Origin: Nitrosopumilaceae archaeon
GTDB taxonomy: Archaea > Thermoproteota > Nitrososphaeria > Nitrososphaerales > Nitrosopumilaceae
DNA length: 64,000 bases
Assembly: GCA_024644385.1 (NCBI GenBank)
Contig: JAHELB010000003.1
Coordinates: 4,223 to 68,222, forward strand
Direction of reading: 5' to 3'
Made by a program: the position numbers and the translations under genes. Positions 20,611 to 63,309 of the stretch are shown piece after piece. Every line of letters starts with the position of its first letter. Within the stretch, counting starts at the first letter, position 1. The notes beneath the pieces were generated by a model. The model was not told where the DNA came from. It saw only the letters and a list, made by a program, of their open reading frames with translations, and searched no databases.

Positions 20611-21292
20611 GATTAATTATTTCTTCTCCTGAAAGATCATCTAGTCTTTTTTCATTTAGAGTTTCCTTGTTAAATTGTTTTAGAATATTTTTGACAGTTT
20701 TTCTTCTGTAGGAAAAAATTTTTTGGATTATATGAATTAGATCTTTATCCAAGATATTTTTTTGAATTATTCTTAGAACTACAGAATCTACTTTTGGGGG
20801 AGGGGAAAAATTATTTTTTTTTACCTTGAAAATACTTTTAATTTCAAAAGAATGATTTGCAATTATACTTACAGCTTTTCTATTCTTTGATGATTTGGCA
20901 AATAGTTTATCAGCAAATTCTTTTTGAACCATTATCACACCATGAGAAAAAGGAGTTTGAGCAAGCCATTCAATTGCATTTTTACTTTTAGAGTAGGGTA
21001 AATTTGATATAAAAATAGAAAAAGGATCTTTGTTCTTAAACCCGTCACCTGATTTTAAGATGAGATTGTTTATATTTGAAAAGATAGTTTTTGCTTTTCT
21101 AACAAGTTGTTCATCAACATCGATAGAAATTACTTTTTTTGCTTTCTCGCAAAGTAACGGAGTTAAAATTCCAGTTCCGGTTCCCAATTCAAATACAATA
21201 TCTTTTTTCGTAATTCTAGCCTCTGAAACAATCTTTTTGGCAATGGATTTTGAATTTAGAAAATGTTGTCCTAGTTTTTTTCTTTTTATCAT
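20585..21292 (-). CDS. rsmA: 16S/18S rRNA dimethyladenosine transferase (KsgA/Dim1)
   Basis: KKLGQHFL, ELGTGTGILT and NLPY motifs. Confidence 0.95.
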   Translation of the reverse strand: MIKRKKLGQHFLNSKSIAKKIVSEARITKKDIVFELGTGTGILTPLLCEKAKKVISIDVDEQLVRKAKTIFSNINNLILKSGDGFKNKDPFSIFISNLPYSKSKNAIEWLAQTPFSHGVIMVQKEFADKLFAKSSKNRKAVSIIANHSFEIKSIFKVKKNNFSPPPKVDSVVLRIIQKNILDKDLIHIIQKIFSYRRKTVKNILKQFNKETLNEKRLDDLSGEEIINLANQILGK

Positions 21293-32751: not shown

Positions 32752-33412
32752 TCAAGAATTTTTCTGGATAAAATCAGAAGGGATGAAAAAACTGGCTACT
32801 GAAAATTTAGTGATAGGAAATCAAGTTTACAAAGAAAAATTAATCACAAAAAAAGGAATAGAGTACAGACTTTGGGAACCTTTTAGAAGTAAATTGGCAG
32901 CATCAATTATGAATGAGCTTGAAGTATTTCCTTTTAAAAATAAATCAAAAGTATTGTATCTTGGTGTATCTACAGGGACAACTATTAGTCATATTTCAGA
33001 TATTGTTGGGCCAAGTGGAATTATTTTTGGCGTGGAGCATGCAAGTAGAGTAGCAAGAGATTTTTTAGATAGAGTTGCATCATATAGAAAAAATATTATT
33101 CCTATTTTACAAGATGCAAGGAAACCAAAAGAGTATTTTTCAATTTTTGGTAAAGTAGATGTAGTGTATGTAGATATTGCCCAGCCTGATCAAACTGAAA
33201 TAGCCATTACAAACTGTAAAATATATCTTAAAAAAAATGGCTATCTATTTTTGGTCATAAAAACAAGAAGTATCGATGTTACAAAATCACCAAGACGAAT
33301 TATTGATGAAGAAATTCTAAAATTAAAAGAAAATTTTGATATTATACAAGTTATTGATTTACATCCATATGATAAAGATCACGCCATGGTGATTGCTAAA
33401 TTTCATATCTAG
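32738..33412 (+). CDS. flpA: Fibrillarin (rRNA/tRNA 2'-O-methyltransferase)
   Basis: EYRLWEPFRSKLAA and VLYLGVSTGTTISHISD are present. The track ORF begins at 32588 inside nop5. The conserved N-terminus starts near FFWIKSEG, so the TTG at 32738 (14-nt overlap) is likely the start, with the ATG at 32783 as the alternative. Confidence 0.9.
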   Translation: MEEDNQEFFWIKSEGMKKLATENLVIGNQVYKEKLITKKGIEYRLWEPFRSKLAASIMNELEVFPFKNKSKVLYLGVSTGTTISHISDIVGPSGIIFGVEHASRVARDFLDRVASYRKNIIPILQDARKPKEYFSIFGKVDVVYVDIAQPDQTEIAITNCKIYLKKNGYLFLVIKTRSIDVTKSPRRIIDEEILKLKENFDIIQVIDLHPYDKDHAMVIAKFHI

Positions 33413-34029
33413 GTTTTATTAATAATTTTTTTAGTAGGTTTCCAACTTTTACGCACAAATTTAGGAATAGTTTTTTGATCTTTGTAGTATTTTTTTACAA
33501 ATTTAATTGTTTTTGCATCTGAAGGATATCCGCTACCCAAATCATAATCTTTCCTAAGATGAGCTATTGCCCTATCTCGAGTAACTTTAGCCAAAATTGA
33601 GGCGGCAGAAACTACAATAAACCTAGAGTCTGCATGATGATAAGAATTAATTTTTTTATTGTTTGATAATTTTGAAATCTCTTTCCCAAATCTTTTTGGA
33701 TTTACATCACATGAATCAACAAAAGATTTGTCTGGATTTAATTTAGTTATTACTTTAGCCATGAATTTGGCCTCAAGATGATTCAAACCATGTTTTTCAA
33801 CACTTGTATCAATAGACTTCGGTGAAATTTTTGAAACATAGTAATTATCCGCCAGAGAGATTATTTTTTTGTAAAGTTCTTCACGACGTATGGAAGAAAG
33901 TTTTTTTGAATCCTTAACTCCCAAACCAGAAAGTTTACGTAGTTTTTTTTTATTTATAGAGATTCCTGCGATAACAAGTGGTCCTAACATTGACCCCCTT
34001 CCAGCATCATCAACCCCACAAATTTGCAC
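33409..34029 (-). CDS. rnhB: Ribonuclease HII
   Basis: CGVDDAGRGSMLGPLVIAG and DSK motifs. Confidence 0.9.
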   Translation of the reverse strand: MQICGVDDAGRGSMLGPLVIAGISINKKKLRKLSGLGVKDSKKLSSIRREELYKKIISLADNYYVSKISPKSIDTSVEKHGLNHLEAKFMAKVITKLNPDKSFVDSCDVNPKRFGKEISKLSNNKKINSYHHADSRFIVVSAASILAKVTRDRAIAHLRKDYDLGSGYPSDAKTIKFVKKYYKDQKTIPKFVRKSWKPTKKIINKT

Positions 34030-34090
34030 AAATTTGCTCCAAGACTACAAGTATTAAACCATTATACGTCTAACAAGAGGATGTTAATCA

Positions 34091-35233
34091 TTGCAAATCA
34101 ACAAAGAAACCTTTGAGACAATCATAGAAGGTCAAACAAAATTAATGGTTCCCAAAAAATCGTTAACTGAAAAAGTTCCACCAAAAGTCCCGGCCTTTTT
34201 CAACCCAAAGGCAAAACTAACTCGAGATTTTTCTATTATTGCCTACAAAGCTTTCTTGAAAAATTTTACTGGGCCAAAAATTTTCCTTGAAGGATTGACA
34301 GGAATGGGAGCTAGGGGAATTCGTGTTGCAAATGAATTAGAATTAGACAAGGTAATTCTAAATGATTTAAATCCATCAGGTTTGGAACTTGCAAAATATT
34401 CTGGGAATTTAAATAATATACAAAATCTAGAGTTTTCTGAAAATGAAATATGCAGGTTTTTTAGCAAGTATTCACAAAAAGGTAGTCGAGCCTCTATTGT
34501 GGACATTGATCCGTTTGGTTCTCCTGCGCAATTTTTTGACTGTGCTCTAAGAGCAACTATGCACGGTGGAATATTATCCTGTACAGCTACGGATTTACAA
34601 GTATTAAATGGGCTATTTCAAAATGCATGTTCAAGGAAATATGGCGGGGTCCCCGTTAGGACTCAATATGGGAATGAAATCGCAATTCGTCTTATTCTGG
34701 GATGTTTAAGAAGAGTTGCAGGGCGTTTAGGGTTGAAAATTATCCCGCTTTATGTTGAAAGTAATTTTCATTATTATAGAATCTACGTTAAAATGCATAC
34801 CAGATCAGATCAGAAAGAAAACTTAGGATATGTTACTCATTGTAAAAATTGTGGTCATCGTAAAATGGTCTCCGAAAAAATAGATTCTTGTGAATTATGT
34901 AATTCAAAGAATAGTTTTGGAGGACCCCTTTGGATTGATAAAATTTTTGACAGAGAGTTTATCGAAAACATGTTACAAGGAATTTCTGAATTGAATGTAG
35001 ACAAATCTTGTGAAAAAAGTTTGAGAAAATGTTTGTTGGAGTCAGAAATGCCTGGAATTTATTTCACATTAGATGAAATTGCATCTAGAATGAAATCATC
35101 CCCACCAAAACTTGAGAATGCAATTAAAAATTTACAAAATAAGGGTTACATGTCCAGTCCTACATCTTTTAATCCAACAGGTTTTAGAACAAATGCAAAT
35201 GTAAAAGAAATAATTACAGTATTTTCAAATTAA
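34091..35233 (+). CDS. trm1: tRNA (guanine26-N2)-dimethyltransferase Trm1
   Basis: TTG start. IIEGQTKLMVP, FFNPKAKLTRD, DIDPFGSP and the Zn motif CKNCGH...CELC. Confidence 0.9.
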   Translation: MQINKETFETIIEGQTKLMVPKKSLTEKVPPKVPAFFNPKAKLTRDFSIIAYKAFLKNFTGPKIFLEGLTGMGARGIRVANELELDKVILNDLNPSGLELAKYSGNLNNIQNLEFSENEICRFFSKYSQKGSRASIVDIDPFGSPAQFFDCALRATMHGGILSCTATDLQVLNGLFQNACSRKYGGVPVRTQYGNEIAIRLILGCLRRVAGRLGLKIIPLYVESNFHYYRIYVKMHTRSDQKENLGYVTHCKNCGHRKMVSEKIDSCELCNSKNSFGGPLWIDKIFDREFIENMLQGISELNVDKSCEKSLRKCLLESEMPGIYFTLDEIASRMKSSPPKLENAIKNLQNKGYMSSPTSFNPTGFRTNANVKEIITVFSN

Positions 35234-35823
35234 GCTGTATATCCAAGACAAACAATGTATAGCTCACTACTTTGTTTTCTGCTTGCCGGAGGTTTCGTGA
35301 GATTTATTCGAGCAAATTTTTTCTTCAAAAAATCTCTAAACTCCATCGAATATTCCCCATCAAATATTTTAAAGACAGCATTTCCTTTATGTATCAGTAC
35401 TTTGTCCATAATTTTTGTGCATGAATAATTTAGTGAGATTTGTTTGGCGTGGTCAACTGTCCAATTTCCTGAAACCTGAGGAGAAAGGTCACAAATTACT
35501 GCATTAACCTTTCTACCAAAATATTCAAGTATTTCATCAACCATAGATTCGTCTTCAATATTACCACGAACTATGCTCGCACCAGGAATTTCTTCGACGT
35601 ATGATAAATCAATTCCCATCACTTTTCCCTTGTTTCCTGCAAGTTTTACTGCCATTTGGGTCCATCCCCCTGGAGCACAACCGAGATCAAGTACATAAAA
35701 GCCAGGTCCTATAAGACGATATGATTGATTTAGTTCTTTGAGTTTGTATGCAGCTCTGCTACGGAACCCCTGCTCATGGGCCAGATTTCTATAATAGTCG
35801 CGCCTCGCGTCTCGTAATCTCAT
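35230..35823 (-). CDS. rlmE: 23S rRNA 2'-O-ribose methyltransferase RlmE/FtsJ
   Basis: GFRSRAAYKLKEL...VLDLGCAPGGWTQ...VICDLSP. Confidence 0.9.
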   Translation of the reverse strand: MRLRDARRDYYRNLAHEQGFRSRAAYKLKELNQSYRLIGPGFYVLDLGCAPGGWTQMAVKLAGNKGKVMGIDLSYVEEIPGASIVRGNIEDESMVDEILEYFGRKVNAVICDLSPQVSGNWTVDHAKQISLNYSCTKIMDKVLIHKGNAVFKIFDGEYSMEFRDFLKKKFARINLTKPPASRKQSSELYIVCLGYTA

Positions 35824-45879: not shown

Positions 45880-47710
45880 TTTCTATTGGTTTCTCCTCTT
45901 GTAATATTTTTTGGAAATTAGGTTCTTTTTTCTTCCCTGCAAGTTCTGTACAAAATTGTGCGATTAAAGGAATGTACTTTGCATAAAGATTTGCTCTCTT
46001 TTTTGCAGCTTCTACTTGACCTCGTTTATTCATAAAAACAGATAATTTTCTCGCCATGAACTGAATTGCTAATTTAAGTTCTTTTTCAATTTCTTGTCTA
46101 TCTGCAACATTTTCCTTTCCCGCTGTTTTGTATGGGATTCTAGTAGAACAGATATGGGAGACAATTACCAAGGGAGGATCCCCCTTTGCTTTATAACGGC
46201 TCCAATCAATATCATTAATTACTTTTAGGACAACATCACTTCCTTCATCGTAGAGTAAAGGAATACGGTTTGCAAATCGATAAACCTTGATTCCACGGGT
46301 ACTGATTTCACCACCGTATGCAATTCCCATCTCGACGACAAAAGGAAATCCAGAATAAGCAGAAGCATTACGCTGGATCACGGTAAGAAAATCAGGTTTG
46401 AAAAATTTCTTCATTCCTTTCTCAAGAGGCTCTTCGCCAAGTGGAGCTAGGCAGCTTGGATCAGGACCCATAAAGTCCTCAAATTTTTGTAAGGAATCAC
46501 TAAATTTGGCAAGTTCTTGGTTAGTCATAGTTCCCACACGTTTTTCAGGCTTGAATCCTGCAAATTCTGCAAATTTTACGGCAGTAGTGGGACCAACCCT
46601 TTGGAATTTTTTTGACAAAAAGGAAGTTAATGTTTCTCCTTGAACGGTGTTGGTTAATTGTTTGTAGTATTGACTTTCTGAATCCATTTCTATTGATTTA
46701 GATGTAGAATCTCCAAAATCCCAATAAAATAATTTTTTGTTTGGAACATCTATATCTTCAATTCTAATTTTATTTAGTTTTTCAAAATCCATTTTTAGAA
46801 ATGACATTAATGCGATTACAACTCTAACTTGTCTTGAAAGATTTTTCCAACGTTTTTTAGCTTTTTCCATTATCGCTGTGAAACTTAAACTCTTTTTTGA
46901 AAGACCCAGATCCTTTCTTACTTTTTCTATCATCGCATCATCAATCGTCGGAATTTCAAACTGAGATTCAACAACCATTCTTCTGATGGTTTCAACATCA
47001 GTTCCATAAGGGTGTGGTTTGATTATAGTGGGGGATTTAGGCATCATGTTGATCATTCGAGGGTAATGGAATTTTTCTCCTTTAGGATCATCAAAAGTAA
47101 TCGACGCATATGGAGTAATCAGAGATGTTTGATAAACATAATCTCTAATTTTCGATCCAGCTTTTGAATAATCACCTTCAAGAAAAATACTAACCGAAAG
47201 ACCTTGTCTTGCAACTTCTTTTGTTTTGTGTTTCAAAATAACTGGTTTATTCTTTTGAATATCAAGTAACATCTCATATTCGTGTAATAATTTTCCATCG
47301 GTAGAACTTTTGACTGTTACAGGTTTGTTTGTGGTAATTTGTCCATAAAGAATTGCCATGGTTGCACCTAAACCAAACATTCCTCTTGCTTGTTTCAATC
47401 CAAATTTAGAACCATAAAGAACTGTTCCAAATGCTAATGGAACATGTTTTGACTCAATTCCAGGTCCATTGTCCTTGACACTTAAAATGTATTGTTTTGG
47501 GTCAGATTTTTCAGGATCAACTGCCTTTATTGTCAGGTGAATATCAGGAAGAATTCCCTTAGCATCGCACGCATCCAGACCATTTTCTACAAATTCCCTT
47601 ACTGCTGTATATAATGACCTCGAGGGATTACTAAATCCAGCAAGATCTCTATTTCTATAGAAGAATTCACTTGGGGAGATTTGGTTAAATTTTTCCTTAA
47701 TCGAAGACAT
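45863..47710 (-). CDS. top6B: DNA topoisomerase VI subunit B
   Basis: GHKL ATPase motifs (ENGLDA, DNGPGI, GMFGLG). It overlaps top6A in an operon. Confidence 0.95.
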   Translation of the reverse strand: MSSIKEKFNQISPSEFFYRNRDLAGFSNPSRSLYTAVREFVENGLDACDAKGILPDIHLTIKAVDPEKSDPKQYILSVKDNGPGIESKHVPLAFGTVLYGSKFGLKQARGMFGLGATMAILYGQITTNKPVTVKSSTDGKLLHEYEMLLDIQKNKPVILKHKTKEVARQGLSVSIFLEGDYSKAGSKIRDYVYQTSLITPYASITFDDPKGEKFHYPRMINMMPKSPTIIKPHPYGTDVETIRRMVVESQFEIPTIDDAMIEKVRKDLGLSKKSLSFTAIMEKAKKRWKNLSRQVRVVIALMSFLKMDFEKLNKIRIEDIDVPNKKLFYWDFGDSTSKSIEMDSESQYYKQLTNTVQGETLTSFLSKKFQRVGPTTAVKFAEFAGFKPEKRVGTMTNQELAKFSDSLQKFEDFMGPDPSCLAPLGEEPLEKGMKKFFKPDFLTVIQRNASAYSGFPFVVEMGIAYGGEISTRGIKVYRFANRIPLLYDEGSDVVLKVINDIDWSRYKAKGDPPLVIVSHICSTRIPYKTAGKENVADRQEIEKELKLAIQFMARKLSVFMNKRGQVEAAKKRANLYAKYIPLIAQFCTELAGKKKEPNFQKILQEEKPIENEQKN

Positions 47711-48269
47711 TTTGATCTTCCCACAGTTTCATTTTTTCTTGTTTGCTTCGTCTATTTGCTGCTTCTAATTTGTTGTAGACAGTTCCATGCATACTACCAT
47801 TTGATATTGACGAAATTGCATTTACCGTTAATCGTAGTTTGTTAGGTTCTCCAATTATTGAAACAGTTTTTCCATATATCGAGATTAAGGTACCAGTTAA
47901 ATTTTCCATGTTTCGTCTAGCCTTACCACCTTCTCCAATAAGTCTCCCTTTAATTCTTTCAATATTCCCACTTGATTTTCCTCCAAATTCTGTCAAATTA
48001 ATAACATGTAAAGTATTTTCTCCATTTATCAAAGTCATTGCATTTTCTGGTGAGAAACCTCGACCTATTGCAGTAACAATTTCCATAGCCTTGAATGGTT
48101 CAACTTTTTCAACATCATCGGTGGATTTAATTAAAACTTCTCCAGTTTCACCATTAACATCTAAATTCACAAAACAAGTTTGTTCAATCTTAGATTTAAC
48201 AGAACCAGACTTCCCAATTAAAACAGCAATTCGATCATTGGGTATTCGAATTAGTTTTTCAAAGATCAT
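47697..48269 (-). CDS. KH-domain RNA-binding protein (Dim2/Pno1-like)
   Basis: Two KH-like GxxG segments (IGKSG, IGEGGKAR). It lies downstream of the RIO kinase, as in other archaea. Confidence 0.8.
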   Translation of the reverse strand: MIFEKLIRIPNDRIAVLIGKSGSVKSKIEQTCFVNLDVNGETGEVLIKSTDDVEKVEPFKAMEIVTAIGRGFSPENAMTLINGENTLHVINLTEFGGKSSGNIERIKGRLIGEGGKARRNMENLTGTLISIYGKTVSIIGEPNKLRLTVNAISSISNGSMHGTVYNKLEAANRRSKQEKMKLWEDQNVFD

Positions 48270-49045
48270 GATATCATTTCCTTTAACACTTTTGTGGGAT
48301 CATTAACAGGGATTCCTCGTTTAGAAAAGAATCGGGTAATGTTATTAATATCTCTTTTAAGAAATTCTTGTGCATTTGGATGGCGAAGATCCACTGCGGA
48401 TCCTAGATCAAATAAGACTAACCCAGTATCAGTTTTAAAAATATTATATTCTGAAAAATCTCCATGAACTAATTCTGCTTTTGTATATAGATTTTTGATT
48501 AGTGAAATTGCACTATGATAATCATTCTCATCAATTTGAGATTCCAGTAAAACCTTGCAGGGAGACCCGTTTTTACCCACAAATTCCATTGCTAATACAT
48601 TATTTGTGACATGAATAGGTCTTGGAACAGATATTCCACAATCATAACACCGTAAAAGATTTTTAAATTCTTTTTTTGCCCATAGATAAACCAAATTTTT
48701 TGTACCTTTTTTTATTTTTGAAAATCTTGGATCTCCAAGAATGTAGGCTTCTCTTTTTTTGAAATTTGAGGTACTTACTAGATAAATTTTCAATGCAACA
48801 TCAATGTTATTTTCATCTACAGCCCAAAAAACAACAGATTCTTTTCCGGCACTTATTGAGCCGTTAACATAAGCAATAATATGATCTTTGATTAACTTGT
48901 ACAAAGTCATAACAGTTGGTTTATCTAAAACCTCGTTGATTACCTTGCCTTTCTTAAAACCATCTTTAAGTTGTTTTTTTCTTGTTTTAGAAAAGATTTT
49001 TTCATCAAGTTTCGATTCTAATTTTCTGCTAATATCATCTTGCAT
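48266..49045 (-). CDS. rio1: RIO-type serine/threonine protein kinase
   Basis: GSISAGKESVVF, LVHGDFSEYN and DLGSAV motifs. Confidence 0.9.
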   Translation of the reverse strand: MQDDISRKLESKLDEKIFSKTRKKQLKDGFKKGKVINEVLDKPTVMTLYKLIKDHIIAYVNGSISAGKESVVFWAVDENNIDVALKIYLVSTSNFKKREAYILGDPRFSKIKKGTKNLVYLWAKKEFKNLLRCYDCGISVPRPIHVTNNVLAMEFVGKNGSPCKVLLESQIDENDYHSAISLIKNLYTKAELVHGDFSEYNIFKTDTGLVLFDLGSAVDLRHPNAQEFLKRDINNITRFFSKRGIPVNDPTKVLKEMIS

Positions 49046-49142
49046 TAATTGGTTTTACCCGCACTAGATAAAATGGATTTCTTTGATTAATTAAAGGTTA
49101 GTGAGTTCATCTACAATAAAATTTCAAATTAAATAATAATTA

Positions 49143-49439
49143 TTACATTTTGAAAACAATTAGAAATGGAATTCCTCCAACGGTTTTAACAGCAGTTTCG
49201 GAGCCAACCCCTAATTCTAAAGAGAGTGAGATGGTATCTTTTCCAACCATGTTGATTATTGAAGAATTTTTTAGTAAATTTTTTGCTTCATTATGTTCAA
49301 TTATTTTTTCACCGTAGTAGCTCTTACTAATTTTCATGTTTAATTGATCTTGAACAATGGTTTTTCCTAAAAGATCAATGTCACAGATATTTAGCATTTG
49401 ATTTTTTTGGTATTCAGAAATTTTAACTGAAAATCGCAT
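49143..49439 (-). CDS. DUF424 protein
   Basis: MLNICDIDLLGKTI... is typical of DUF424, and the gene sits next to aIF2-beta. Confidence 0.6.
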   Translation of the reverse strand: MRFSVKISEYQKNQMLNICDIDLLGKTIVQDQLNMKISKSYYGEKIIEHNEAKNLLKNSSIINMVGKDTISLSLELGVGSETAVKTVGGIPFLIVFKM

Positions 49440-49861
49440 TATGCATATTTACCTTTTAAGGTTGATTTTGCACCACAAGCTTCACAAATTAAAAAGGAAA
49501 TTCTGTTTTCTTTTACGATTTTAGTGTCTGGACTTTTACATGTGGGGCATTCGAGATAGTCTTTGACATAAATTTGGAAGAGGCGCGTAAAATCATCAGG
49601 GGCTCGTCTGCCCACAAACATAGCTTTATCCCCTAAACGTTCAGCAGGAACTGCAAATTCTTTTGAAAGGTATTGTAGGACTTTATCGGGATCTCTACGA
49701 AGAACCTTTGGAAATTCTGAGAAATTCCGGAGATAAGTTTTTTGACCTTCCCACATAACATCAACAACTGGTAATTCAAACCTAGCCTTTGATCCTTTTT
49801 TAGTATCGCCTATTTTATCTTGAATTCTTTTAAGTAGAATTTCATAGTCGGACTTTGTCAT
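49439..49861 (-). CDS. eif2b: Translation initiation factor 2 subunit beta (aIF2-beta)
   Basis: YEILLKRI... with the C-terminal zinc ribbon CPTCKSPDT...CEACG. I prefer the ATG at 49861 over the TTG at 49882. Confidence 0.9.
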   Translation of the reverse strand: MTKSDYEILLKRIQDKIGDTKKGSKARFELPVVDVMWEGQKTYLRNFSEFPKVLRRDPDKVLQYLSKEFAVPAERLGDKAMFVGRRAPDDFTRLFQIYVKDYLECPTCKSPDTKIVKENRISFLICEACGAKSTLKGKYA

Positions 49862-49928
49862 ATATGGTCGTTGTAGGGCCAACCCTATATTGGTTTTTGA
49901 AAAAGAGGAATCCTGTGGATTTTTAAAC

Positions 49929-53327: not shown

Positions 53328-54053
53328 TTGTAAATTCTTTGCAACCTCAACTGGGTTTTTTGCATTTAGAATTGTTCTACCCACAATTAAATAATCAGAC
53401 CCGGCAGAAACTACTTCCTTAGCATTTCCTCCCTGGGTTCCAACTCCTGGAGAATATATCTTCAATTTTTTTCCGGCCTGTTTTCGACAAAACGAAATAA
53501 TTTTAGGAAAAGTTGCCCCTACAACAATGCCATCAACCTTGGACTTTAAGGCCCAATCAAGAAACAGTTGGTATAGTAGTTGCTTTTTTTTTAATTTAAT
53601 TTCCATATCATATGTTAATTTAGCCTCAGGGGCGCTCATATGGCAGAGGGTGATTACACCCTTTTCCTTTTTATGGCAAATTTTTACTAGATTGTTTAAA
53701 CTATCAAAACCCATAATGGGGTTTGCAATAATTGCATCAAATCCCAAGTTCCACAAATTTTCTGTTGTTATTCTATTTGTGTTTCCTATATCATTTAGTT
53801 TGATATCTGCAATTGTTTGTAAACCATATTTGTGAGCTGTTTTGTTAATTTTACAAATTTGTTTCGATCCAAGTGGTAATAACAAATGAAAATTAAGTTT
53901 AATTCCACAAAGAAATGGATGAAGATTTATTATATTTCGGATTGTTTTTGATTCTAAATTTTTTATTGAATGGTCATAATCATTTGCAAGAATTACCTTA
54001 CCATTGCTCTTTGAGATTTCTGAAATTCTAGTTTTGAAGGTGGCCATAATCAA
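53307..54053 (-). CDS. pyrF: Orotidine 5'-phosphate decarboxylase
   Basis: VILANDYD, ADIKLNDIGNT and a C-terminal GSDYLIVGR. Confidence 0.8.
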   Translation of the reverse strand: MIMATFKTRISEISKSNGKVILANDYDHSIKNLESKTIRNIINLHPFLCGIKLNFHLLLPLGSKQICKINKTAHKYGLQTIADIKLNDIGNTNRITTENLWNLGFDAIIANPIMGFDSLNNLVKICHKKEKGVITLCHMSAPEAKLTYDMEIKLKKKQLLYQLFLDWALKSKVDGIVVGATFPKIISFCRKQAGKKLKIYSPGVGTQGGNAKEVVSAGSDYLIVGRTILNAKNPVEVAKNLQLQSFGK

Positions 54054-54687
54054 CTAGTGGATGAGTATCTTTTAGTTTTATAATTTTCACATATGAATAT
54101 CCATGTTCGGATGGACTATTAACAAAAGTTGGATCAGAATTATTATTTGAAAATTTTAAAAATGGTTTTTGAGGATCCTCGCCAAGTACAACATGACAAA
54201 AATATGATGTTCCTTCTTCATTAAAATTCATGAAGACTCCTATTAGCCATTTTTCGTTGCGAGGAAATAAAAACAATGGGAACGGATTTTCATCAAACCC
54301 CCAAGTTAACTTTGCAAGACTTGCCAAATCTTCAAGTTCTATAGGTTGGTATCTATCAGCAGTTCCATTTCCAGGGCGCAAGGTTTCAGGGAGTGATTTT
54401 ATGCGAACAATTGGAGAATAAAGTTTACTAGCATCTGATGTGGAATCTACAATTTCTGTCTGTTCTGTTTCACCCCTAAACGCATAACAAAGATAATGAC
54501 CATTATGTTCAAGCGGAGTGTAATATACAATTGGTTTTTCTTTTAGTATATCCATTTGTACTGATAAAATTTTTCTCCCCTCATGATCATGAAGAAATGA
54601 AATACGTGGGGCTCTCTCCAATGCACAAACAAGTCTAGAAAATTCTAAAGTCGATGAAACTTGAATGTATCGAGGTAGTTTGTCCAC
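54028..54687 (-). CDS. Hypothetical protein
   Basis: ORF only. It overlaps the pyrF start by 26 nt, suggesting co-transcription. Confidence 0.55.
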   Translation of the reverse strand: MDKLPRYIQVSSTLEFSRLVCALERAPRISFLHDHEGRKILSVQMDILKEKPIVYYTPLEHNGHYLCYAFRGETEQTEIVDSTSDASKLYSPIVRIKSLPETLRPGNGTADRYQPIELEDLASLAKLTWGFDENPFPLFLFPRNEKWLIGVFMNFNEEGTSYFCHVVLGEDPQKPFLKFSNNNSDPTFVNSPSEHGYSYVKIIKLKDTHPLVDYGHLQN

Positions 54688-55773: not shown

Positions 55774-56280
55774 GTGGTGCACATGATTTATTATCAAACA
55801 GAAAATTCAACTAGAACATTGGCTGAACCAAATTATGCAGGAAACATTATAGTTATTTTAGCAAATCTTCCAGATTTTCTCAGAACACCAATCTTGAAAA
55901 AAAGAATGATGGAATTTTTTGAGATGCCAGATCCCGAAAAAAAACAGCTGATCAATAATGCTTTGGAAGCTGGGCCAACAATTCCTTTTCCAAATTTTGC
56001 AAAATTGTTTAAGACATGGTTGGAAATACTAACAGTGTTACCAGAAGATCAGAGAAGTGGTTTATTTCTTGCGTACCTTAATGAAATATCTGAACATCCC
56101 CAGAAACTAATTACTTTTAATTTAGATGGAATATTAGAGATTTTTCTATCATTGGATAAGGAGAAGCAGACCATAATTTCCCAGTCTGTTAAAAATATAA
56201 TTAATAGGTTCGAGGATGAAAGAAAAAGAAGATTACTACTAGTGATTCCTGATAATGCTCAAACCTATTTGAAACTCTAA
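55774..56280 (+). CDS. Hypothetical protein
   Basis: ORF only (GTG at 55774 or ATG at 55783). Confidence 0.5.
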   Translation: MVHMIYYQTENSTRTLAEPNYAGNIIVILANLPDFLRTPILKKRMMEFFEMPDPEKKQLINNALEAGPTIPFPNFAKLFKTWLEILTVLPEDQRSGLFLAYLNEISEHPQKLITFNLDGILEIFLSLDKEKQTIISQSVKNIINRFEDERKRRLLLVIPDNAQTYLKL

Positions 56281-57124: not shown

Positions 57125-57871
57125 TTGACAGAAGATAATAGAAAAGTTCTTCCAAAGGACTTTGGTTCAGATTTTAGTCTACCTGGTCGCCTAGAGGAGG
57201 GCAATTCAGAGTATTTTGACGTAGAACCCATAAAGCCCAAACCAAAAAACCGTGCCATTTTGGTATTTGCATTGGCTTTTGTTCTAGTTGCAGCTGGGTT
57301 TTTTTCATATTATTTTATTAATCAAAGTGAGATTGACTCGAAGATTATTCAGAATAGAATCAATGATCCTGAAAGGAAGCTAGTAAACCAGTATGGTGTA
57401 GGTCGATATGGAAGTGACCACGCGCATGCTGCCATGGCTATTTTTATCGATGAGGAACAGCTAAATTTTGGATTGTCTCAATTTCAGGTTACCAGTAGGT
57501 ACATCCACTTTGAAAATCATAATCCATACCAAATTCACAAGCATGCAACCAACGTTCCATTGGAAATGTTGTTTTCCTCAATTGGAATGAAAATAACACC
57601 AGAGTGTATTATCTTGAATGATGGAGTATCTGCAGAGATGATAGCTGGTAAATTTTGTTCAGGACAAGACCAATCCTTGGCGGTTTATATCAATGGAGAG
57701 CAATATTATTCGGATATCTCCCAGTATGAGATTAACCATAATGACCGAATATTGATTTCCTTTGGTGATGTTGAATCAATCTCAAAGCAGCTATTGTATT
57801 TGGATTCTTTGAGAATTTTTGATGTTCCAAAGCAGACCCCGCAGTATTCAGGAAATGATATTTCGGTCTGA
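57125..57871 (+). CDS. Membrane-anchored hypothetical protein with His-rich motifs
   Basis: TTG start and one TM helix. DHAHAAMAIFIDEEQLNF...IHFENHNPYQIHKHA suggests a metal-binding beta domain. Confidence 0.55.
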   Translation: MTEDNRKVLPKDFGSDFSLPGRLEEGNSEYFDVEPIKPKPKNRAILVFALAFVLVAAGFFSYYFINQSEIDSKIIQNRINDPERKLVNQYGVGRYGSDHAHAAMAIFIDEEQLNFGLSQFQVTSRYIHFENHNPYQIHKHATNVPLEMLFSSIGMKITPECIILNDGVSAEMIAGKFCSGQDQSLAVYINGEQYYSDISQYEINHNDRILISFGDVESISKQLLYLDSLRIFDVPKQTPQYSGNDISV

Positions 57872-60244: not shown

Positions 60245-60844
60245 TTGAAAATAAATTGTAATACAGAGGGTATTGACAAAGCAACCAAAGTTGTAAAGGA
60301 TGGCGGAATTGTGGTTTTTCCTACAGATACTGTTTATGGAATAGGATGCGATCCTTACAATGAAAAATCAGTGGATAGAATTTATCAAATCAAAAAAAGA
60401 CCCAAATCAAAGCCCTTCCCGGTTTTGACTTTTTCAATCAATATGGCAACTAAAATTGTTGATTTTGATAATGATTCTAAAAAAATAGCTGAAAGGTTTT
60501 GGCCTGGCCCTTTAACGTTGGTATTAAAATTAAAAGATGAAAGATTGAGAAAGACTTTAAATTTGCAAGAAAAAATTGCTGTCCGAGTTCCAAATAACAA
60601 ATGTTTGCTAAACCTATTGAAAAATACTAAATTTTTAATCGGAACAAGTGCAAATAATTCTGGGGAAGATTCATTTACAAACTCTGACGATTGCTATCAA
60701 AAAATGAACGGATTTGATGTTTTTTTAGATGATGGAGATATTAAAGATGGTAAAGAATCAACAATTCTAGAAATGATACAAGGAAACCCAATTTTTCATA
60801 GAATAGGGGCCTTGAAAAAAGAGGAGATTATAGAAACTTTTTGA
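60245..60844 (+). CDS. tsaC: L-threonylcarbamoyladenylate synthase (TsaC/YrdC-domain, Sua5 family)
   Basis: TTG start. VVFPTDTVYGIGCDPYN, RIYQIKKRPKSKPF and TSANNSG motifs. Confidence 0.85.
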   Translation: MKINCNTEGIDKATKVVKDGGIVVFPTDTVYGIGCDPYNEKSVDRIYQIKKRPKSKPFPVLTFSINMATKIVDFDNDSKKIAERFWPGPLTLVLKLKDERLRKTLNLQEKIAVRVPNNKCLLNLLKNTKFLIGTSANNSGEDSFTNSDDCYQKMNGFDVFLDDGDIKDGKESTILEMIQGNPIFHRIGALKKEEIIETF

Positions 60845-61362
60845 ATTTATTAATTACATGTGCTAGACATTTGGAACCAGAAACCCAAGAGGAAATTATG
60901 AGAATTCTAGAGGATTTGGGGGATTCTGAACCTAAAATTTTGATTTCAAGCATGTCAGGAATTTTAACAGTAAAAACAAAATTAGATCCATTTATGGTCG
61001 TAAAAAAGATACGTGAATCAATAATCGATGAACCTTGGAGCGTCAGATATTGTCTTCGAATAATACCCATACAAAGGGTAACTGAAACAAAAATCGAAGA
61101 TATGGAACGAGAAATTTCAGATTTATTAGGATTAATTTCAGAGGGAGAATCTTATAGAATATCAATAGAAAAAAGAAATTCTGATGTTTCAAGTAAAGAA
61201 CTGATCACAAGGGTGGCCAAGATTATTAAAAATAAAGTTTCATTAGAAAATCCAGATAAGATTATACAAATTGAGATTTTAGGAGCAAGGACAGGTATCT
61301 CTATTTTAAATAAATTTGATATTTTAAGCGTTGAAAAAACAAAAAGAAGTTTATCCGAGTAG
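60841..61362 (+). CDS. THUMP-domain protein
   Basis: TTG start overlapping the tsaC stop. Size and pattern fit stand-alone archaeal THUMP proteins (LLITCARHLE...YRISIEKRN...). Confidence 0.65.
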   Translation: MNLLITCARHLEPETQEEIMRILEDLGDSEPKILISSMSGILTVKTKLDPFMVVKKIRESIIDEPWSVRYCLRIIPIQRVTETKIEDMEREISDLLGLISEGESYRISIEKRNSDVSSKELITRVAKIIKNKVSLENPDKIIQIEILGARTGISILNKFDILSVEKTKRSLSE

Positions 61363-62127
61363 AATAGCTCCTTTTTCAATTAAAAGATCTTCTAAAGGAG
61401 TCTTGGAGTAAATTGAATCTAATTGTTTTTTTGTTATTTTAAAGTATTTTTTTAAAAATGATGAGTGGTCTTTAGAAAAAATTTCAATTATCAGTGGATT
61501 TAATTTTCGATATAGCTTTTCCAATTCAGTTTTGTTCCCTATAGCAATCAAAATAAAATTATTTTTGGGTTTAATTCCTACTGACATTATTGCATCTCCA
61601 ATCTGTTTTGTAGCTGCAAAACGCAACAGAATATCTGTTTCAAGTTTATTTGAAAGCAAGATATTTTCCTGCTCAGATTTGATTGATATGAAAAGAATTT
61701 TTTTTAAATGATATGAATTTAGAATAAATTTACTTGAAATTGCTTGTAATTTCAATTTTGGAAAATCTTTTCTAAGGGTTTCTAAAAAGGAAACACCGAT
61801 TTTTTTACTTCCCTTTATCTCAACAATTTGAATTAATTTTTTCCCAACTTTAAGTCCAATTTTTTTATTAGATCCACCATGAATAATAGGAATAATACTC
61901 ACAAGATCACTGTTTTTTACTAGAGTCTTTTTACCCTCCATTGAAGAAGAATCTGCCCCATTAATCGCTATTAGAATATTGTTGGTGTCAAGGTCAGGTG
62001 TATTTTTTGGTTTAATTTTTAAGATTAAATCTAGTAATTTATCAATTGTAATGGTATCTATTTCTAATTCTAATTCCTCTGAGGAAAACAATTTTTTTGC
62101 CCCTCCAACTAGTTTTACAGTTACCAT
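61351..62127 (-). CDS. Fusion of a MoaD/ThiS/SAMP-like ubiquitin-fold domain (aa 1-85, ending IIHGG) to KEOPS subunit Cgi121 (aa ~86-258)
   Basis: The N-terminus MVTVKLVGGAKKLF...LVKNSDLVSIIPIIHGG is MoaD-like. The C-terminus LETDILLRFAATKQIGDAIMSVGIKPKNNFILIAIG...EDLLIEKGAIL parallels M. jannaschii Cgi121 (WMEILVRASGQRQIHEAIKIIGAKDGNVCLI...). Confidence 0.6.
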   Translation of the reverse strand: MVTVKLVGGAKKLFSSEELELEIDTITIDKLLDLILKIKPKNTPDLDTNNILIAINGADSSSMEGKKTLVKNSDLVSIIPIIHGGSNKKIGLKVGKKLIQIVEIKGSKKIGVSFLETLRKDFPKLKLQAISSKFILNSYHLKKILFISIKSEQENILLSNKLETDILLRFAATKQIGDAIMSVGIKPKNNFILIAIGNKTELEKLYRKLNPLIIEIFSKDHSSFLKKYFKITKKQLDSIYSKTPLEDLLIEKGAILLG

Positions 62128-62168: not shown

Positions 62169-62564
62169 TTAATCGGTTTTTTCTTCTGTTGGTTCTGGGG
62201 TTTCTGGAGCATCTATGGAATCATCACCAATTTCAATAACTTTTTCTTCTGATTCTATAGCTGAATTTGTATCAATTTCGATTATTTCCTCAGTAGGTGC
62301 ACTTTCATCGATTAAAGAATCCTCTTTGGACTGGTTTAATTCTTGTTCAAGGTTTTCTTTTTTTATAAATTTAGTGATATAACCTGCGACTCTATTCTTT
62401 AATCCCTTTGAGCGGATAATGGCAAGGTTCCCTAATAATTTTTTATTGTCAGCAAAATTTTCATTAAATTTTGATTTGTGTTGGTTCATTACTTCATATG
62501 AAAGTCGCTTAATCCTATCCATTCTTCCATTACTAAACTGGGGTTTTTTATACCTATATTCCAA
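62169..62564 (-). CDS. rps17e: 30S ribosomal protein S17e with an acidic C-terminal extension
   Basis: DRIKRLSYEVMNQHKSKFNENFADNKKLL...LKNRVAGYITKF matches the eS17 core. Confidence 0.85.
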   Translation of the reverse strand: MEYRYKKPQFSNGRMDRIKRLSYEVMNQHKSKFNENFADNKKLLGNLAIIRSKGLKNRVAGYITKFIKKENLEQELNQSKEDSLIDESAPTEEIIEIDTNSAIESEEKVIEIGDDSIDAPETPEPTEEKTD

Positions 62565-63309
62565 GAAAATTTTTGGAATTTGTCTCTAGTATTGATGCCA
62601 TTTCATCATACTTTATGTTTAAAATTTTAGAAGAACAAAAAACCACGCTTGGGATAAAACCTATTTGTGCTTGTTTTAATTCAAAACACCTAGAAAACCT
62701 GACAGGACCATCGGTTTCTACAAGAATTTTATCTTGATCAGTTTTAGTTAATAGATTCTGTTTATCGTTTGCATAAACCATAACAGGTCCATAGGATACA
62801 AAAAAATTCATATCCATTGCCCTTTGTAGTTGTTTCTTGTTACCATCAAACCAATGGAGTAATGCATTTTTCGTACTAAACGAAGTCATTATTTCAAATA
62901 TATCATCAAGGCTTTTTCTTGAATGAATGGATATAGGTTTCTGATGTTTTTCCGCAATAGAGAGTAAAGACTCAAAAATATTAATCTGATTTTTTTTATC
63001 TTCCTCTGATTTAGTATAAGTTGGATCTAAACCAATTTCCCCTATTCCTGAAATAATACTAGAGTTCTCCTCTATCAATTCAATCATCTTATCTAAATTA
63101 TCATTTGCACATTCCGGATGAATTCCAATAAAAGGTAAAATCAAATTACTTTTTTTGGCAATTTCTAAGGTTCTTAGAGAGTTCGTTCTATCCATGGAGA
63201 CACAACATGCCTTGATTTTCATGACTTCCATTCCTTGGATTATATGATTTAGATCTTTTTGAAATTCAGGATCGGAGAGATGAATGTGAGAATCAAATAA
63301 CCATGTCAT
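62554..63309 (-). CDS. TatD-family metal-dependent hydrolase
   Basis: FDSHIHL, GEIGLD, SIHSR and ETDGP motifs. Confidence 0.9.
   Translation of the reverse strand: MTWLFDSHIHLSDPEFQKDLNHIIQGMEVMKIKACCVSMDRTNSLRTLEIAKKSNLILPFIGIHPECANDNLDKMIELIEENSSIISGIGEIGLDPTYTKSEEDKKNQINIFESLLSIAEKHQKPISIHSRKSLDDIFEIMTSFSTKNALLHWFDGNKKQLQRAMDMNFFVSYGPVMVYANDKQNLLTKTDQDKILVETDGPVRFSRCFELKQAQIGFIPSVVFCSSKILNIKYDEMASILETNSKNFLGI

What the first reader, a model, noticed from the sequence alone, without database searches (positions are those of the whole stretch)
61351..62127. Ubiquitin-like (MoaD/SAMP-type) domain with an internal Gly-Gly fused to KEOPS subunit Cgi121, inside a t6A/tRNA-modification cluster
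**Seen in sequence.** Residues 1-85 (nt 61873-62127) read like a MoaD/ThiS beta-grasp protein. They end in the hallmark ...IIPIIHGG, but the chain continues into a Cgi121-like domain. The divergent neighbours are TsaC/Sua5 (60245-60844) and a THUMP protein (60841-61362).

**Established knowledge.** TsaC/Sua5 makes threonylcarbamoyl-AMP and KEOPS (Kae1-Bud32-Cgi121-Pcc1) transfers it to tRNA A37. Urm1 and SAMPs link ubiquitin-fold proteins to tRNA thiolation. Eukaryotic ubiquitin is made as fusions that are cleaved after GG.

**Inference.** Either the Ubl is a permanent KEOPS-tethered module, or it is released after GG by a JAMM-type protease as a free SAMP-like modifier or sulfur carrier. The second case would couple t6A and Ubl chemistry. 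I cannot tell from the sequence whether this fusion has been described.
Basis: partly seen in the sequence, partly recalled or inferred. Interest (0 to 1): 0.7.

Follow-up and report, generated by a model that had tools for sequence, protein, structure and literature searches.

The report
Urm1-like ubiquitin-fold domain fused to Cgi121
This ammonia-oxidising archaeon encodes a small ubiquitin-like protein joined head-to-tail to the tRNA-modification subunit Cgi121; the fusion was already reported in 2010, and comparison with relatives suggests it is a precursor that is cut after Gly-Gly into two normal-sized proteins.

Summary
ORF 61351-62127 (-) encodes 258 aa. Residues 1-85 are a ThiS/MoaD/Urm1-type beta-grasp domain ending in IIPIIHGG. 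Residues 86-258 are a complete Cgi121. Profile matches, an AlphaFold model and Foldseek all agree.

The fusion is not new. Makarova & Koonin (2010) described it in all Thaumarchaea, with the same neighbours in Nitrosopumilus maritimus.

What I add:
- HGG is invariant in 283 of 283 fused orthologues. The segment after it is the most variable in the protein.
- At least two lineages carry the same gene block with the genes split. There the Ubl ends exactly at HGG-stop and is followed by a separate, normal-sized Cgi121.
- A JAMM protease gene lies next to the block in Ca. Nitrosopolaris and 5 kb away in a Nitrososphaera gargensis-type locus.
- By the 2010 tables, N. maritimus has one E1, two JAMM genes, no free-standing Ubl gene and no molybdenum-cofactor pathway.

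Best reading (about 0.55): a precursor cleaved after Gly85 by a JAMM protease, as shown for MoaD-MoaE fusions. This would release an Urm1-like sulfur carrier or modifier plus Cgi121. A permanent tether remains possible (about 0.3).

One correction: Sua5 and THUMP are convergent with this gene, not divergent. No E1 or JAMM gene was found in the parts of the window I checked.

The parts
61351..62127 (-). Whole ORF, 258 aa (28.8 kDa): Ubl-Cgi121 fusion, orthologue of the N. maritimus protein GI 161528937
61873..62127 (-). Residues 1-85: ThiS/MoaD/Urm1-type beta-grasp domain (9.1 kDa, pI 5.2)
   Evidence: Pfam ThiS 29.8 bits and Urm1 24.4 bits on the isolated domain. AlphaFold and Foldseek matches to SAMP1, Urm1 and MoaD. 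A profile of the domain against PDB finds Ta0895, T. brucei Urm1 and S. solfataricus Urm1.
61873..61881 (-). Codons for His83-Gly84-Gly85: the invariant Urm1-type tail and proposed cleavage site after Gly85
   Evidence: 283/283 fused orthologues have it, column entropy 0. Split orthologues stop directly after it. The next residue is S, A, T or G in 259/283.
61354..61872 (-). Residues 86-258: complete Cgi121 (19.7 kDa, pI 9.95). The first beta-hairpin starts at about residue 89, so the true linker is only about 3 residues.
   Evidence: Pfam CGI-121, NCBIfam NF011465. Foldseek to 4ww7_B, 8up5_C, 7kjt_H. PDB profile hit to M. jannaschii Cgi121, E = 1.5e-8. Stand-alone Cgi121 proteins of 166-205 aa align from about residue 90-113.
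62169..62564 (-). Ribosomal protein S17e, immediately upstream on the same strand (41-nt gap), with a long acidic C-terminal tail. The true start is probably Met15 at 62522.
   Evidence: Pfam Ribosomal_S17e E = 7.6e-14. Conserved position in all loci. Noted by Makarova & Koonin.
62554..63309 (-). TatD-family hydrolase, upstream on the same strand and overlapping the start of S17e
   Evidence: Pfam TatD_DNase E = 6e-51. Conserved synteny.
60841..61362 (+). Stand-alone THUMP-domain protein (173 aa). It is convergent with cgi121 (3' ends overlap by 12 nt) and overlaps the Sua5 stop by 4 nt.
   Evidence: Pfam THUMP 31.9 bits. Conserved synteny.
60245..60844 (+). TsaC/Sua5 L-threonylcarbamoyladenylate synthase (short TsaC type, 199 aa)
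   Evidence: Pfam Sua5_yciO_yrdC E = 3e-53. TIGR00057 170 bits against a cut-off of 123. Conserved synteny.

Best explanation
The gene encodes a two-part precursor. The N-terminal 85 residues are an Urm1-like small archaeal ubiquitin-fold protein. The remaining 173 residues are an ordinary Cgi121, the KEOPS subunit that holds the tRNA 3'-CCA end during t6A37 synthesis.

I propose three steps:
1. A JAMM/MPN+ metalloprotease encoded elsewhere in the genome cuts after Gly85. Natural MoaD-MoaE fusions are cut in this way.
2. The cut yields a 9.1-kDa Ubl with a free -HGG carboxylate and a 19.7-kDa Cgi121 that joins KEOPS.
3. The genome's single E1-like enzyme then adenylates or thiocarboxylates the free Ubl. 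The Ubl acts as a sulfur carrier (most plausibly for tRNA 2-thiolation through the NcsA-type PP-loop ATPase), as a protein modifier, or both.

The fusion and the S17e-Ubl-Cgi121 operon would keep the products co-expressed in equal amounts.

What is shown: the domain identities, the invariance of HGG, the split orthologues and the JAMM adjacency in relatives. What is inferred: the cleavage, the protease and the downstream role.
For: 1. Identity of both domains.

2. HGG is invariant in 283/283 fused proteins. These span Nitrosopumilaceae, Nitrososphaera and deep-branching relatives down to about 25-30% identity. Residues 86-112 have the highest entropy (2.3-2.4 bits), and indels at 88-91 occur in about 45% of sequences.

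3. The same syntenic block occurs with the two genes split:
- L081-L083 have an 84-aa Ubl ending HGG-stop, a 21-nt gap and a 176-aa Cgi121.
- L084-L086 (Ca. Nitrosopolaris) have an 84-aa Ubl, a 76-nt gap and a 193-aa Cgi121.
- L087 has a 93-aa Ubl ending HGG-stop, a 742-nt gap and a 179-aa Cgi121.
- L090/L091 are a second lineage, which also contains the fused P0225 and P0228. They have an 86-aa Ubl ending HGG-stop, a 20-nt gap and a 185-aa Cgi121.
The mature sizes predicted from cleavage (85 + 173 aa) equal the sizes of the split gene products.

4. Some Nitrososphaeraceae Ubls carry 2-12-residue tails after HGG. These would also need trimming if the terminal Gly is to be used.

5. A Prok-JAB gene with an HSHx7SxxD motif is divergently adjacent to S17e-Ubl-Cgi121 in Nitrosopolaris. 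Another lies 5.2 kb upstream in the N. gargensis-type locus.

6. Makarova & Koonin's tables for N. maritimus and Cenarchaeum list two Ubl domains. In N. maritimus these are this fusion and a 443-aa protein (GI 161529056) that fits their Ubl-E1-TBP architecture. They also list one E1, two JAB proteases and one NcsA-like PP-loop ATPase, and no ThiS, Urm1 or MoCo-biosynthesis genes. A free Ubl for the E1 can therefore only come from cleavage.

7. Precedent. The JAMM proteases DR0402 and HvJAMM1 cleave linear MoaD-MoaE and SAMP1-MoaE fusions into active parts.

8. The junction is modelled as low-confidence coil: pLDDT about 65 at residues 81-90.
Against: - No direct evidence of cleavage exists. 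No proteomic or biochemical study of this protein was found.
- No JAMM or E1 gene was found in the window ORFs screened or in the 6-kb flanks of 80 Nitrosopumilaceae loci. The protease is therefore assumed from published tables for N. maritimus, not seen in this organism.
- Persistence of the fusion across two orders would also fit a permanent physical role.
- A Gly-Gly can be conserved simply as an inter-domain hinge.
- Split genes can encode subunits that stay bound non-covalently, so fission alone does not prove cleavage.
- The neighbour-joining tree that places the split forms among fused ones has weak bootstrap support, 18-36%.
- NcsA-type enzymes can use sulfide directly in some archaea (my own knowledge), so a Ubl sulfur carrier is not strictly required.
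Confidence: 0.55

Rival explanations
1. Permanent KEOPS-tethered module. The beta-grasp domain is never removed and acts in cis. It could be an extra docking surface for the E1, NcsA, the proteasome or Bud32/Kae1. It could also help hold the tRNA acceptor end, as TGS-type beta-grasp domains do. In the split lineages the same domain would bind Cgi121 non-covalently.
For: - The fusion has been maintained across Nitrosopumilales, Nitrososphaera and deeper relatives.
- The linker is very short, about 3 residues before the first Cgi121 strand.
- pTM is 0.68 with high pLDDT in both domains, so the model does not exclude a defined inter-domain arrangement.
- Ubl-Cgi121 adjacency is kept even where the genes are split. 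This is typical of interacting subunits.
Against: - A purely structural domain has no reason to keep His-Gly-Gly invariant in 283/283 sequences next to the most variable segment.
- It also has no reason to end exactly at GG in the split forms.
- An internal GG cannot be adenylated by an E1 (established enzymology of ThiF/MoeB/Uba4).
- The profile matches are to ThiS, MoaD and Urm1, and no match to TGS was returned.
- JAMM adjacency in Nitrosopolaris points to GG-directed chemistry.
Confidence: 0.3
2. Chaperone-type precursor. The Ubl is cleaved off, but its main job is to aid folding, solubility or assembly of Cgi121, as ubiquitin does for ribosomal proteins eL40 and eS31 in eukaryotes. The released Ubl would have little function of its own.
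For: - The architecture matches ubiquitin-ribosomal protein fusions: Ubl-GG joined directly to a small basic RNA-binding protein (pI 9.95 against 5.2 for the Ubl).
- The gene lies in an operon with a ribosomal protein.
Against: - The split lineages express Cgi121 without a fused Ubl yet keep the Ubl with an intact HGG. The Ubl is therefore under selection in its own right.
- N. maritimus keeps an E1 with no other free Ubl to activate.
Confidence: 0.1
3. Artefact: two adjacent genes joined by a sequencing or assembly error, or a lost stop codon, in this one genome.
For: Split versions of the same gene pair do exist in some relatives.
Against: The uninterrupted fusion is found in 1691 database proteins and relatives occur in 345 species genomes. 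These include the cultured N. maritimus, N. gargensis, N. viennensis and N. evergladensis.
Confidence: 0.01

Closest known systems
Ubl-Cgi121 fusion of Thaumarchaea (Makarova & Koonin 2010, Archaea 2010:710303; N. maritimus GI 161528937)
   Same: It is the same protein family with the same gene order: 95-aa HTH, 198-aa Sua5, 173-aa THUMP, 257-aa fusion, 129-aa S17e, TatD, histone (compared). The window protein is an orthologue; it is 83% identical to a Nitrosopumilus sp. protein, P0012.
   Different: Nothing essential differs. The 2010 paper did not report the split orthologues, the JAMM adjacency or the invariance of HGG across hundreds of sequences. It proposed regulation by SAMPylation or coordinated function rather than precursor cleavage.
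Archaeal and eukaryotic Urm1 (S. solfataricus Urm1 4WWM, Saci_0669, yeast Urm1 2AX5)
   Same: - Beta-grasp fold.
- Identical style of tail: IIPINHGG in Sulfolobus against IIPIIHGG here.
- The Pfam Urm1 model is passed by the isolated domain.
- The gene lies next to S17e, as in Sulfolobales.
   Different: - Urm1 proteins are free-standing with a terminal GG. Here the GG is internal and followed by Cgi121.
- The NCBIfam Urm1_like equivalog cut-off is not reached: 22.5 bits against 70.
- Sulfolobales lack Cgi121.
Natural MoaD-MoaE linear fusions cleaved by JAMM/MPN+ proteases (D. radiodurans DR2607/DR0402; HvJAMM1 with SAMP1-MoaE)
   Same: An N-terminal ThiS/MoaD-type Ubl with GG is joined directly to a partner protein. 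Cleavage yields a Ubl with a C-terminal Gly plus an active partner.
   Different: The partner here is a tRNA-modification subunit, not the Ubl's own enzyme partner. Thaumarchaea lack MoCo synthesis altogether. Cleavage is untested here.
Eukaryotic ubiquitin-ribosomal protein fusions (UBA52, RPS27A) and FUBI-eS30
   Same: A ubiquitin-fold protein ending in GG is fused directly to a small basic RNA-binding protein of the translation apparatus. It is made as a precursor and cut after GG (established knowledge).
   Different: The Ubl family differs (Urm1/MoaD type, not ubiquitin). The protease class would differ (JAMM expected, not USP/UCH). The partner is a KEOPS subunit, not a ribosomal protein.
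Cgi121/TPRKB of KEOPS (M. jannaschii MJ0187: 3ENH, 7KJT, 8UP5)
   Same: Fold and family match. The helix motif LLR-x5-QI-x2-AI is kept: R169, Q175, I176, A179 and I180 are invariant or nearly so. Ile176 aligns with Mj Ile72, whose mutation abolishes CCA-tail binding and t6A activity.
   Different: It carries an 85-residue N-terminal Ubl that is absent from all characterised Cgi121 proteins. Mj Met60 aligns with Thr164 here.

Membership tests
Cgi121 (KEOPS subunit) | Sequence match to curated family models above their cut-offs | tested here: met
   Pfam PF08617 scores 34.6 bits (cut-off 25). NCBIfam equivalog NF011465 scores 148 bits (cut-off 40).
Cgi121 (KEOPS subunit) | Cgi121 fold | tested here: met
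   The AlphaFold model has pLDDT above 90 over residues 100-250. Foldseek matches 4ww7_B, 8up5_C, 8k20_C and 7kjt_H at E = 2e-8 to 1e-7 with TM 0.68-0.76.
Cgi121 (KEOPS subunit) | tRNA 3'-CCA binding surface (Mj Met60 and Ile72 on helices alpha3/alpha4) | tested here: inconclusive
   The Ile72 equivalent, Ile176, is conserved in at least 99% of sequences, with Arg169 and Gln175 invariant. Met60 aligns with Thr164. This rests on a profile alignment only.
Cgi121 (KEOPS subunit) | Binds Bud32 and supports t6A synthesis | not testable with these tools
   This needs reconstitution. Kae1, Bud32 and Pcc1 were not among the window ORFs I scanned.
ThiS/MoaD beta-grasp sulfur-carrier superfamily | Sequence match and beta-grasp fold | tested here: met
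   Pfam PF02597 scores 29.8 bits (cut-off 22.5), and 26/26 family members match it. Foldseek matches MoaD 1fm0_D and 1jwb_D at TM 0.80 and SAMP1 2l52.
ThiS/MoaD beta-grasp sulfur-carrier superfamily | Gly-Gly at the free C-terminus of the protein, the substrate for E1 adenylation | tested here: not met
   GG is present at the end of the domain but is internal in the translation product (residues 84-85 of 258). It is terminal only in the split orthologues. It would be met only after cleavage.
Urm1 family | Match to Urm1 models and an HGG tail | tested here: inconclusive
   - Pfam PF09138 scores 20.5 bits on the whole protein (cut-off 21.8) and 24.4 bits on residues 1-85.
- 20/26 family members match at E<=0.01.
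- NCBIfam Urm1_like scores 22.5 bits against a cut-off of 70.
- The HGG tail is invariant.
SAMP-type protein modifiers | E1-dependent isopeptide conjugation to target lysines | not testable with these tools
   NCBIfam SAMP1 scores 17.1 bits against a cut-off of 60. Conjugates can only be shown by mass spectrometry or immunoblot.
JAMM-processed linear Ubl fusions (MoaD-MoaE type) | Ubl N-terminal to its partner, with GG at the junction | tested here: met
   HGG is followed by S, A, T or G in 259/283 sequences, then by the first strand of Cgi121.
JAMM-processed linear Ubl fusions (MoaD-MoaE type) | A JAMM/MPN+ protease is encoded by the same genome | not testable with these tools
   None was found in the window ORFs screened or in the flanks of 80 related loci. 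N. maritimus and Cenarchaeum are reported to have two each. A Prok-JAB gene is adjacent in Nitrosopolaris and 5 kb away in the N. gargensis-type locus. The rest of this genome is not available.
JAMM-processed linear Ubl fusions (MoaD-MoaE type) | Cleavage after GG demonstrated | not testable with these tools
   This needs an experiment. No published test was found.

The most novel reading that the evidence does not exclude
After release by a JAMM protease, the Urm1-like Ubl works together with KEOPS on the same tRNA. While Cgi121 holds the CCA end of tRNA-Lys(UUU), the thiocarboxylated Ubl would supply sulfur for s2U34, so that t6A37 and U34 thiolation are installed in a coupled way. Alternatively, the Ubl is conjugated to S17e or to KEOPS subunits to tune translation. 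Either case would be the first direct mechanistic link between a ubiquitin-fold system and t6A synthesis. It would also be an archaeal counterpart of ubiquitin-ribosomal protein precursors.
Probability: 0.15. Interest if true: 0.75.

Novelty: already known. Interest (0 to 1): 0.4.

Why it matters
Thaumarchaeota are among the most abundant archaea on Earth. By the 2010 genome tables, their only ubiquitin-fold domains are fused to other proteins: one to Cgi121 and one to the E1.

If the Ubl-Cgi121 protein is a cleaved precursor, these organisms make their sole free Urm1-like modifier in the way eukaryotes make ubiquitin. That would push precursor processing of ubiquitin-fold proteins deep into the archaeal relatives of eukaryotes. 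It would also tie this processing to the translation apparatus, through S17e, KEOPS and Sua5.

If the fusion is permanent, thaumarchaeal KEOPS has an extra subunit domain that no structural or biochemical study of KEOPS has considered.

Either answer is reachable with simple experiments. The KEOPS papers I checked do not mention the fusion.

Tried and rejected
- **Exact-sequence look-up of the window protein.** It returned nothing, so context came from relatives.
- **First genome scan with the 37-sequence alignment.** It failed for lack of a conserved stretch. A 10-sequence alignment worked, but its best 80 loci were all Nitrosopumilaceae. Wider taxonomy had to come from source names.
- **JAMM or E1 in the window.** A motif scan of the 78 retained ORFs of at least 70 aa found no HxHx(6-14)SxxD motif and no protein ending in GG. 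phmmer with two thaumarchaeal JAB proteins found nothing significant. The recurrent weak hits (E 0.3-1) are an unrelated 153-168-aa protein. Pfam on 27 window ORFs found only housekeeping genes.
- **KEOPS partners in the window.** The kinase-like ORF at 48266-49045 is RIO1, not Bud32.
- **Later literature.** Two KEOPS comparative papers (PMC4615747, PMC9889334) and two Urm1 papers (PMC4569737, PMC12645042) do not mention the fusion. Full-text searches found only the 2010 paper.
- **Sequencing artefact.** Rejected because of the wide distribution of the fusion.
- **Tree of fused and split forms.** The topology suggests that fission is derived, but bootstrap support is too weak to rely on.
- **Inter-domain packing.** It could not be judged, because only pLDDT and pTM are returned and not the error matrix or coordinates.
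- **P0246, another free Ubl ending in HGG.** It could not be placed in a genomic context.
Full report

Yes. ORF 61351..62127 on the minus strand starts with ATG and encodes 258 aa.

- The N-terminal part matches Pfam ThiS (PF02597) over residues 4-85 at 29.8 bits (cut-off 22.5). The match ends on the last profile position, at Gly85.
- The C-terminal part matches Pfam CGI-121 (PF08617) over residues 122-250 at 34.6 bits (cut-off 25).
- The NCBIfam Cgi121 equivalog NF011465 scores 148 bits against a cut-off of 40.
- An AlphaFold2 model built on 56 sequences has mean pLDDT 88.7 and pTM 0.68. It shows a beta-grasp pattern over residues 2-80, a low-confidence coil at 81-88 (block mean pLDDT 65) and the first Cgi121 strand at 89-94.
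- Foldseek against the PDB matches Cgi121 chains from yeast, Arabidopsis, human and M. jannaschii (E = 2e-8 to 1e-7, target TM 0.68-0.76).
- Foldseek separately matches SAMP1, Ta0895, Urm1 and MoaD (target TM up to 0.80-0.82).

**2. What kind of Ubl is it?**

A profile of the Ubl domain alone (26 fused and free members) finds these PDB entries: Thermoplasma Ta0895 (E = 8e-8), T. brucei Urm1 (1e-6), S. solfataricus Urm1 (2e-5), then CysO, SAMP1 and yeast Urm1. The Sulfolobus Urm1 tail reads IIPINHGG, against IIPIIHGG here.

All 26 members match Pfam ThiS and 20 also match Pfam Urm1. The window's isolated domain passes the Urm1 cut-off, 24.4 bits against 21.8. The NCBIfam Urm1_like and SAMP1 equivalog cut-offs are not reached.

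I therefore call it an Urm1-like member of the ThiS/MoaD superfamily, not a proven Urm1 orthologue.

**3. Where does Cgi121 begin?**

Stand-alone Cgi121 proteins of 166-205 aa align to the query from about residue 90-113. They carry an N-terminal hairpin that corresponds to residues 89-104 here. The true linker is therefore only about three residues (Ser-Asn-Lys).

A cut after Gly85 would give an 85-aa Ubl (9.1 kDa, pI 5.2) and a 173-aa Cgi121 (19.7 kDa, pI 9.95). Both are of normal size.

**4. Surroundings.**

The gene order in the window is:
- Upstream on the same strand: TatD (62554-63309), then S17e (62169-62564), then the fusion gene.
- Converging from the other side: Sua5/TsaC (60245-60844) and a stand-alone THUMP protein (60841-61362). 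These two overlap each other by 4 nt, and THUMP overlaps the fusion's 3' end by 12 nt.

This order is conserved:
- It is kept in all 80 Nitrosopumilaceae loci as far as each contig reaches; 60 show the full eight-gene block.
- It is kept in a Nitrososphaera gargensis-type locus.
- It is kept in part in a deep-branching lineage.

I found no Kae1, Bud32, Pcc1, E1 or JAMM gene in the parts of the window I checked. That check was a motif scan of the 78 retained ORFs of at least 70 aa, phmmer with two JAB queries against all ORFs of at least 50 aa, and Pfam on 27 ORFs.

**5. It is already described.**

[quoted passage not shown] They also noted that it is apparently cotranscribed with S17e in N. 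maritimus.

Their supplementary table lists the N. maritimus protein (GI 161528937, 257 aa). Its neighbours are 95, 198 and 173 aa on one side and 129, 272 and 78 aa on the other. This is the same arrangement as in the window.

Database pipelines already give the protein both annotations. The later KEOPS and Urm1 papers I checked do not mention it, and I found no experimental test.

**6. New comparative evidence on mechanism.**

(a) Invariance of HGG.
- His83-Gly84-Gly85 is present in all 283 full-length fused proteins I collected. These range from Nitrosopumilaceae and Nitrososphaera (gargensis, viennensis, evergladensis) to relatives only about 25-30% identical.
- Its column entropy is zero. 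Residues 86-112 have the highest entropy in the protein (2.3-2.4 bits), and about 45% of sequences have indels at 88-91.
- The residue after GG is S, A, T or G in 259 of 283.

(b) Split orthologues. The same block exists with the two halves as separate genes.
- In Nitrososphaeraceae, including Ca. Nitrosopolaris, an 84- or 93-aa Ubl ends at HGG-stop.
- It is followed after 21, 76 or 742 nt by a 176-193-aa Cgi121 with its own ATG. S17e lies upstream, and THUMP and Sua5 lie downstream where the contig reaches them.
- One such Ubl cluster is seen on more than 100 contigs.
- A second, distant lineage contains both fused forms (P0225, P0228) and a split form. The split form is an 86-aa Ubl ending HGG-stop, a 20-nt gap and a 185-aa Cgi121.
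- So the boundary has been opened or closed at least twice, each time exactly after GG.
- A neighbour-joining tree nests the Nitrososphaeraceae split forms among fused ones, which suggests fission. Bootstrap support is weak, 18-36%.

(c) Tails after HGG. Some Nitrososphaeraceae Ubls carry 2-12 extra residues after HGG. They would need trimming if the terminal Gly is used.

(d) JAMM adjacency. A 138-aa Prok-JAB gene (Pfam E = 2.7e-16, HSHx7SxxD motif) sits divergently next to S17e-Ubl-Cgi121 in Nitrosopolaris. Another lies 5.2 kb upstream in the N. gargensis-type locus.

(e) Published gene counts. For N. maritimus and Cenarchaeum, Makarova & Koonin's Table S1 gives:
- two Ubl domains; in N. maritimus these are this fusion and a 443-aa protein (GI 161529056) consistent with their Ubl-E1-TBP architecture;
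- one E1, two JAB proteases and one NcsA-type PP-loop ATPase;
- no ThiS or Urm1 genes and no MoCo-biosynthesis genes.
A free Ubl for the E1 to activate can therefore only arise by proteolysis, and MoCo synthesis is not its purpose.

(f) Precedent. JAMM proteases cleave the natural MoaD-MoaE fusion of D. radiodurans and an engineered SAMP1-MoaE fusion in Haloferax, releasing active parts.

**7. Most likely mechanism.**

The gene product is a precursor. A JAMM/MPN+ protease cuts after Gly85. Cgi121 joins KEOPS. The Urm1-like Ubl, now with a free HGG carboxylate, is activated by the E1. It then serves as a sulfur carrier (most plausibly for tRNA thiolation), a protein modifier, or both.

Shown: the domain identities, the HGG invariance, the split orthologues and the JAMM adjacency in relatives. 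Inferred: the cleavage, which protease does it, and the downstream role. I put about 0.55 on cleavage.

The main rival, at about 0.3, is a permanent KEOPS-tethered domain. It explains the long persistence of the fusion and the very short linker. It does not explain the invariant His-Gly-Gly, nor why split forms stop exactly after it. A chaperone-only precursor gets about 0.1. An artefact is excluded.

**8. Is the Cgi121 part functional?**

The helix motif that contains M. jannaschii Ile72 is conserved. Mutation of Ile72 abolishes CCA-tail binding and t6A activity. Here Arg169, Gln175, Ile176 and Ala179 are invariant or nearly invariant across the alignments, and Ile180 is conserved in at least 90% of the 37 representatives. 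Mj Met60 aligns with Thr164. This is consistent with a working Cgi121 but rests on a profile alignment only.

**9. Verdict.**

It is already in the literature, so its novelty class is 'already known'.

It is still unresolved experimentally and is overlooked by the KEOPS papers I checked. The split orthologues and the JAMM adjacency give a sharper, directly testable hypothesis. Interest is moderate, 0.4.

Noticed in passing
window 60245-61362 (+): Sua5/TsaC and a stand-alone 173-aa THUMP-domain protein overlap by 4 nt, which looks like an operon. They stay together next to Cgi121 across Nitrosopumilaceae, Nitrososphaera and the split lineages. THUMP domains bind tRNA acceptor ends in other enzymes, so this could be an undescribed tRNA-binding partner in t6A synthesis.
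   Followed up: partly
window 62169-62564 (-): The S17e ORF is 131 aa. Only residues 14-73 match the S17e models. The rest is a long, very acidic C-terminal tail. The annotated TTG start is probably too far upstream, and Met15 at 62522 fits the orthologues better.
   Followed up: no
L089 9142-9987 and L091 1667-2509: In a deep-branching lineage, a 280-aa gene with no Pfam match even at E<=1 sits between S17e and the Ubl, overlapping the Ubl start by 4 nt in L091. It carries an LDPxxIDxKTxxVLDGMHR motif reminiscent of ParB/sulfiredoxin-type domains.
   Followed up: partly
proteins P0281, P0448, P0458, P0447, P0278, P0280 (Nitrososphaeraceae): These free-standing Ubl genes continue past HGG for 2-12 residues (MF, RL, YN, CFNMLLLHAGNV). 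They are either true pro-peptides needing trimming or scars of gene fission.
   Followed up: partly
proteins P0166 (308 aa) and P0203 (329 aa): These fused orthologues have long poly-glycine or low-complexity inserts directly after HGG. The junction tolerates large expansions while HGG itself is kept.
   Followed up: no
L084 3039-3455 (-) and L088 4355-4762 (-): Minimal Prok-JAB (JAMM) genes of 134-138 aa lie next to the S17e-Ubl-Cgi121 block in Ca. Nitrosopolaris and 5.2 kb from it in a Nitrososphaera gargensis-type locus. No counterpart is seen in the 6-kb flanks of 80 Nitrosopumilaceae loci.
   Followed up: partly
window 27884-29617 (-), 57125-57871 (+), 54028-54687 (-), 55774-56280 (+): These sizeable ORFs (577, 248, 219 and 168 aa) have no Pfam family at the thresholds used. 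The 168-aa one has clear homologues about 3 kb from cgi121 in many Nitrosopumilaceae loci.
   Followed up: no
window 20077-21292, 31453-35823, 47697-49882: The window is rich in translation and RNA-modification genes: KsgA/Dim1 plus a small methyltransferase, Nop56/58-fibrillarin, Trm1, FtsJ, RIO1 plus a KH protein, and an IF2B/IF5-domain protein (probably eIF2-beta). This is ordinary archaeal housekeeping context. RIO1 is not Bud32.
   Followed up: yes
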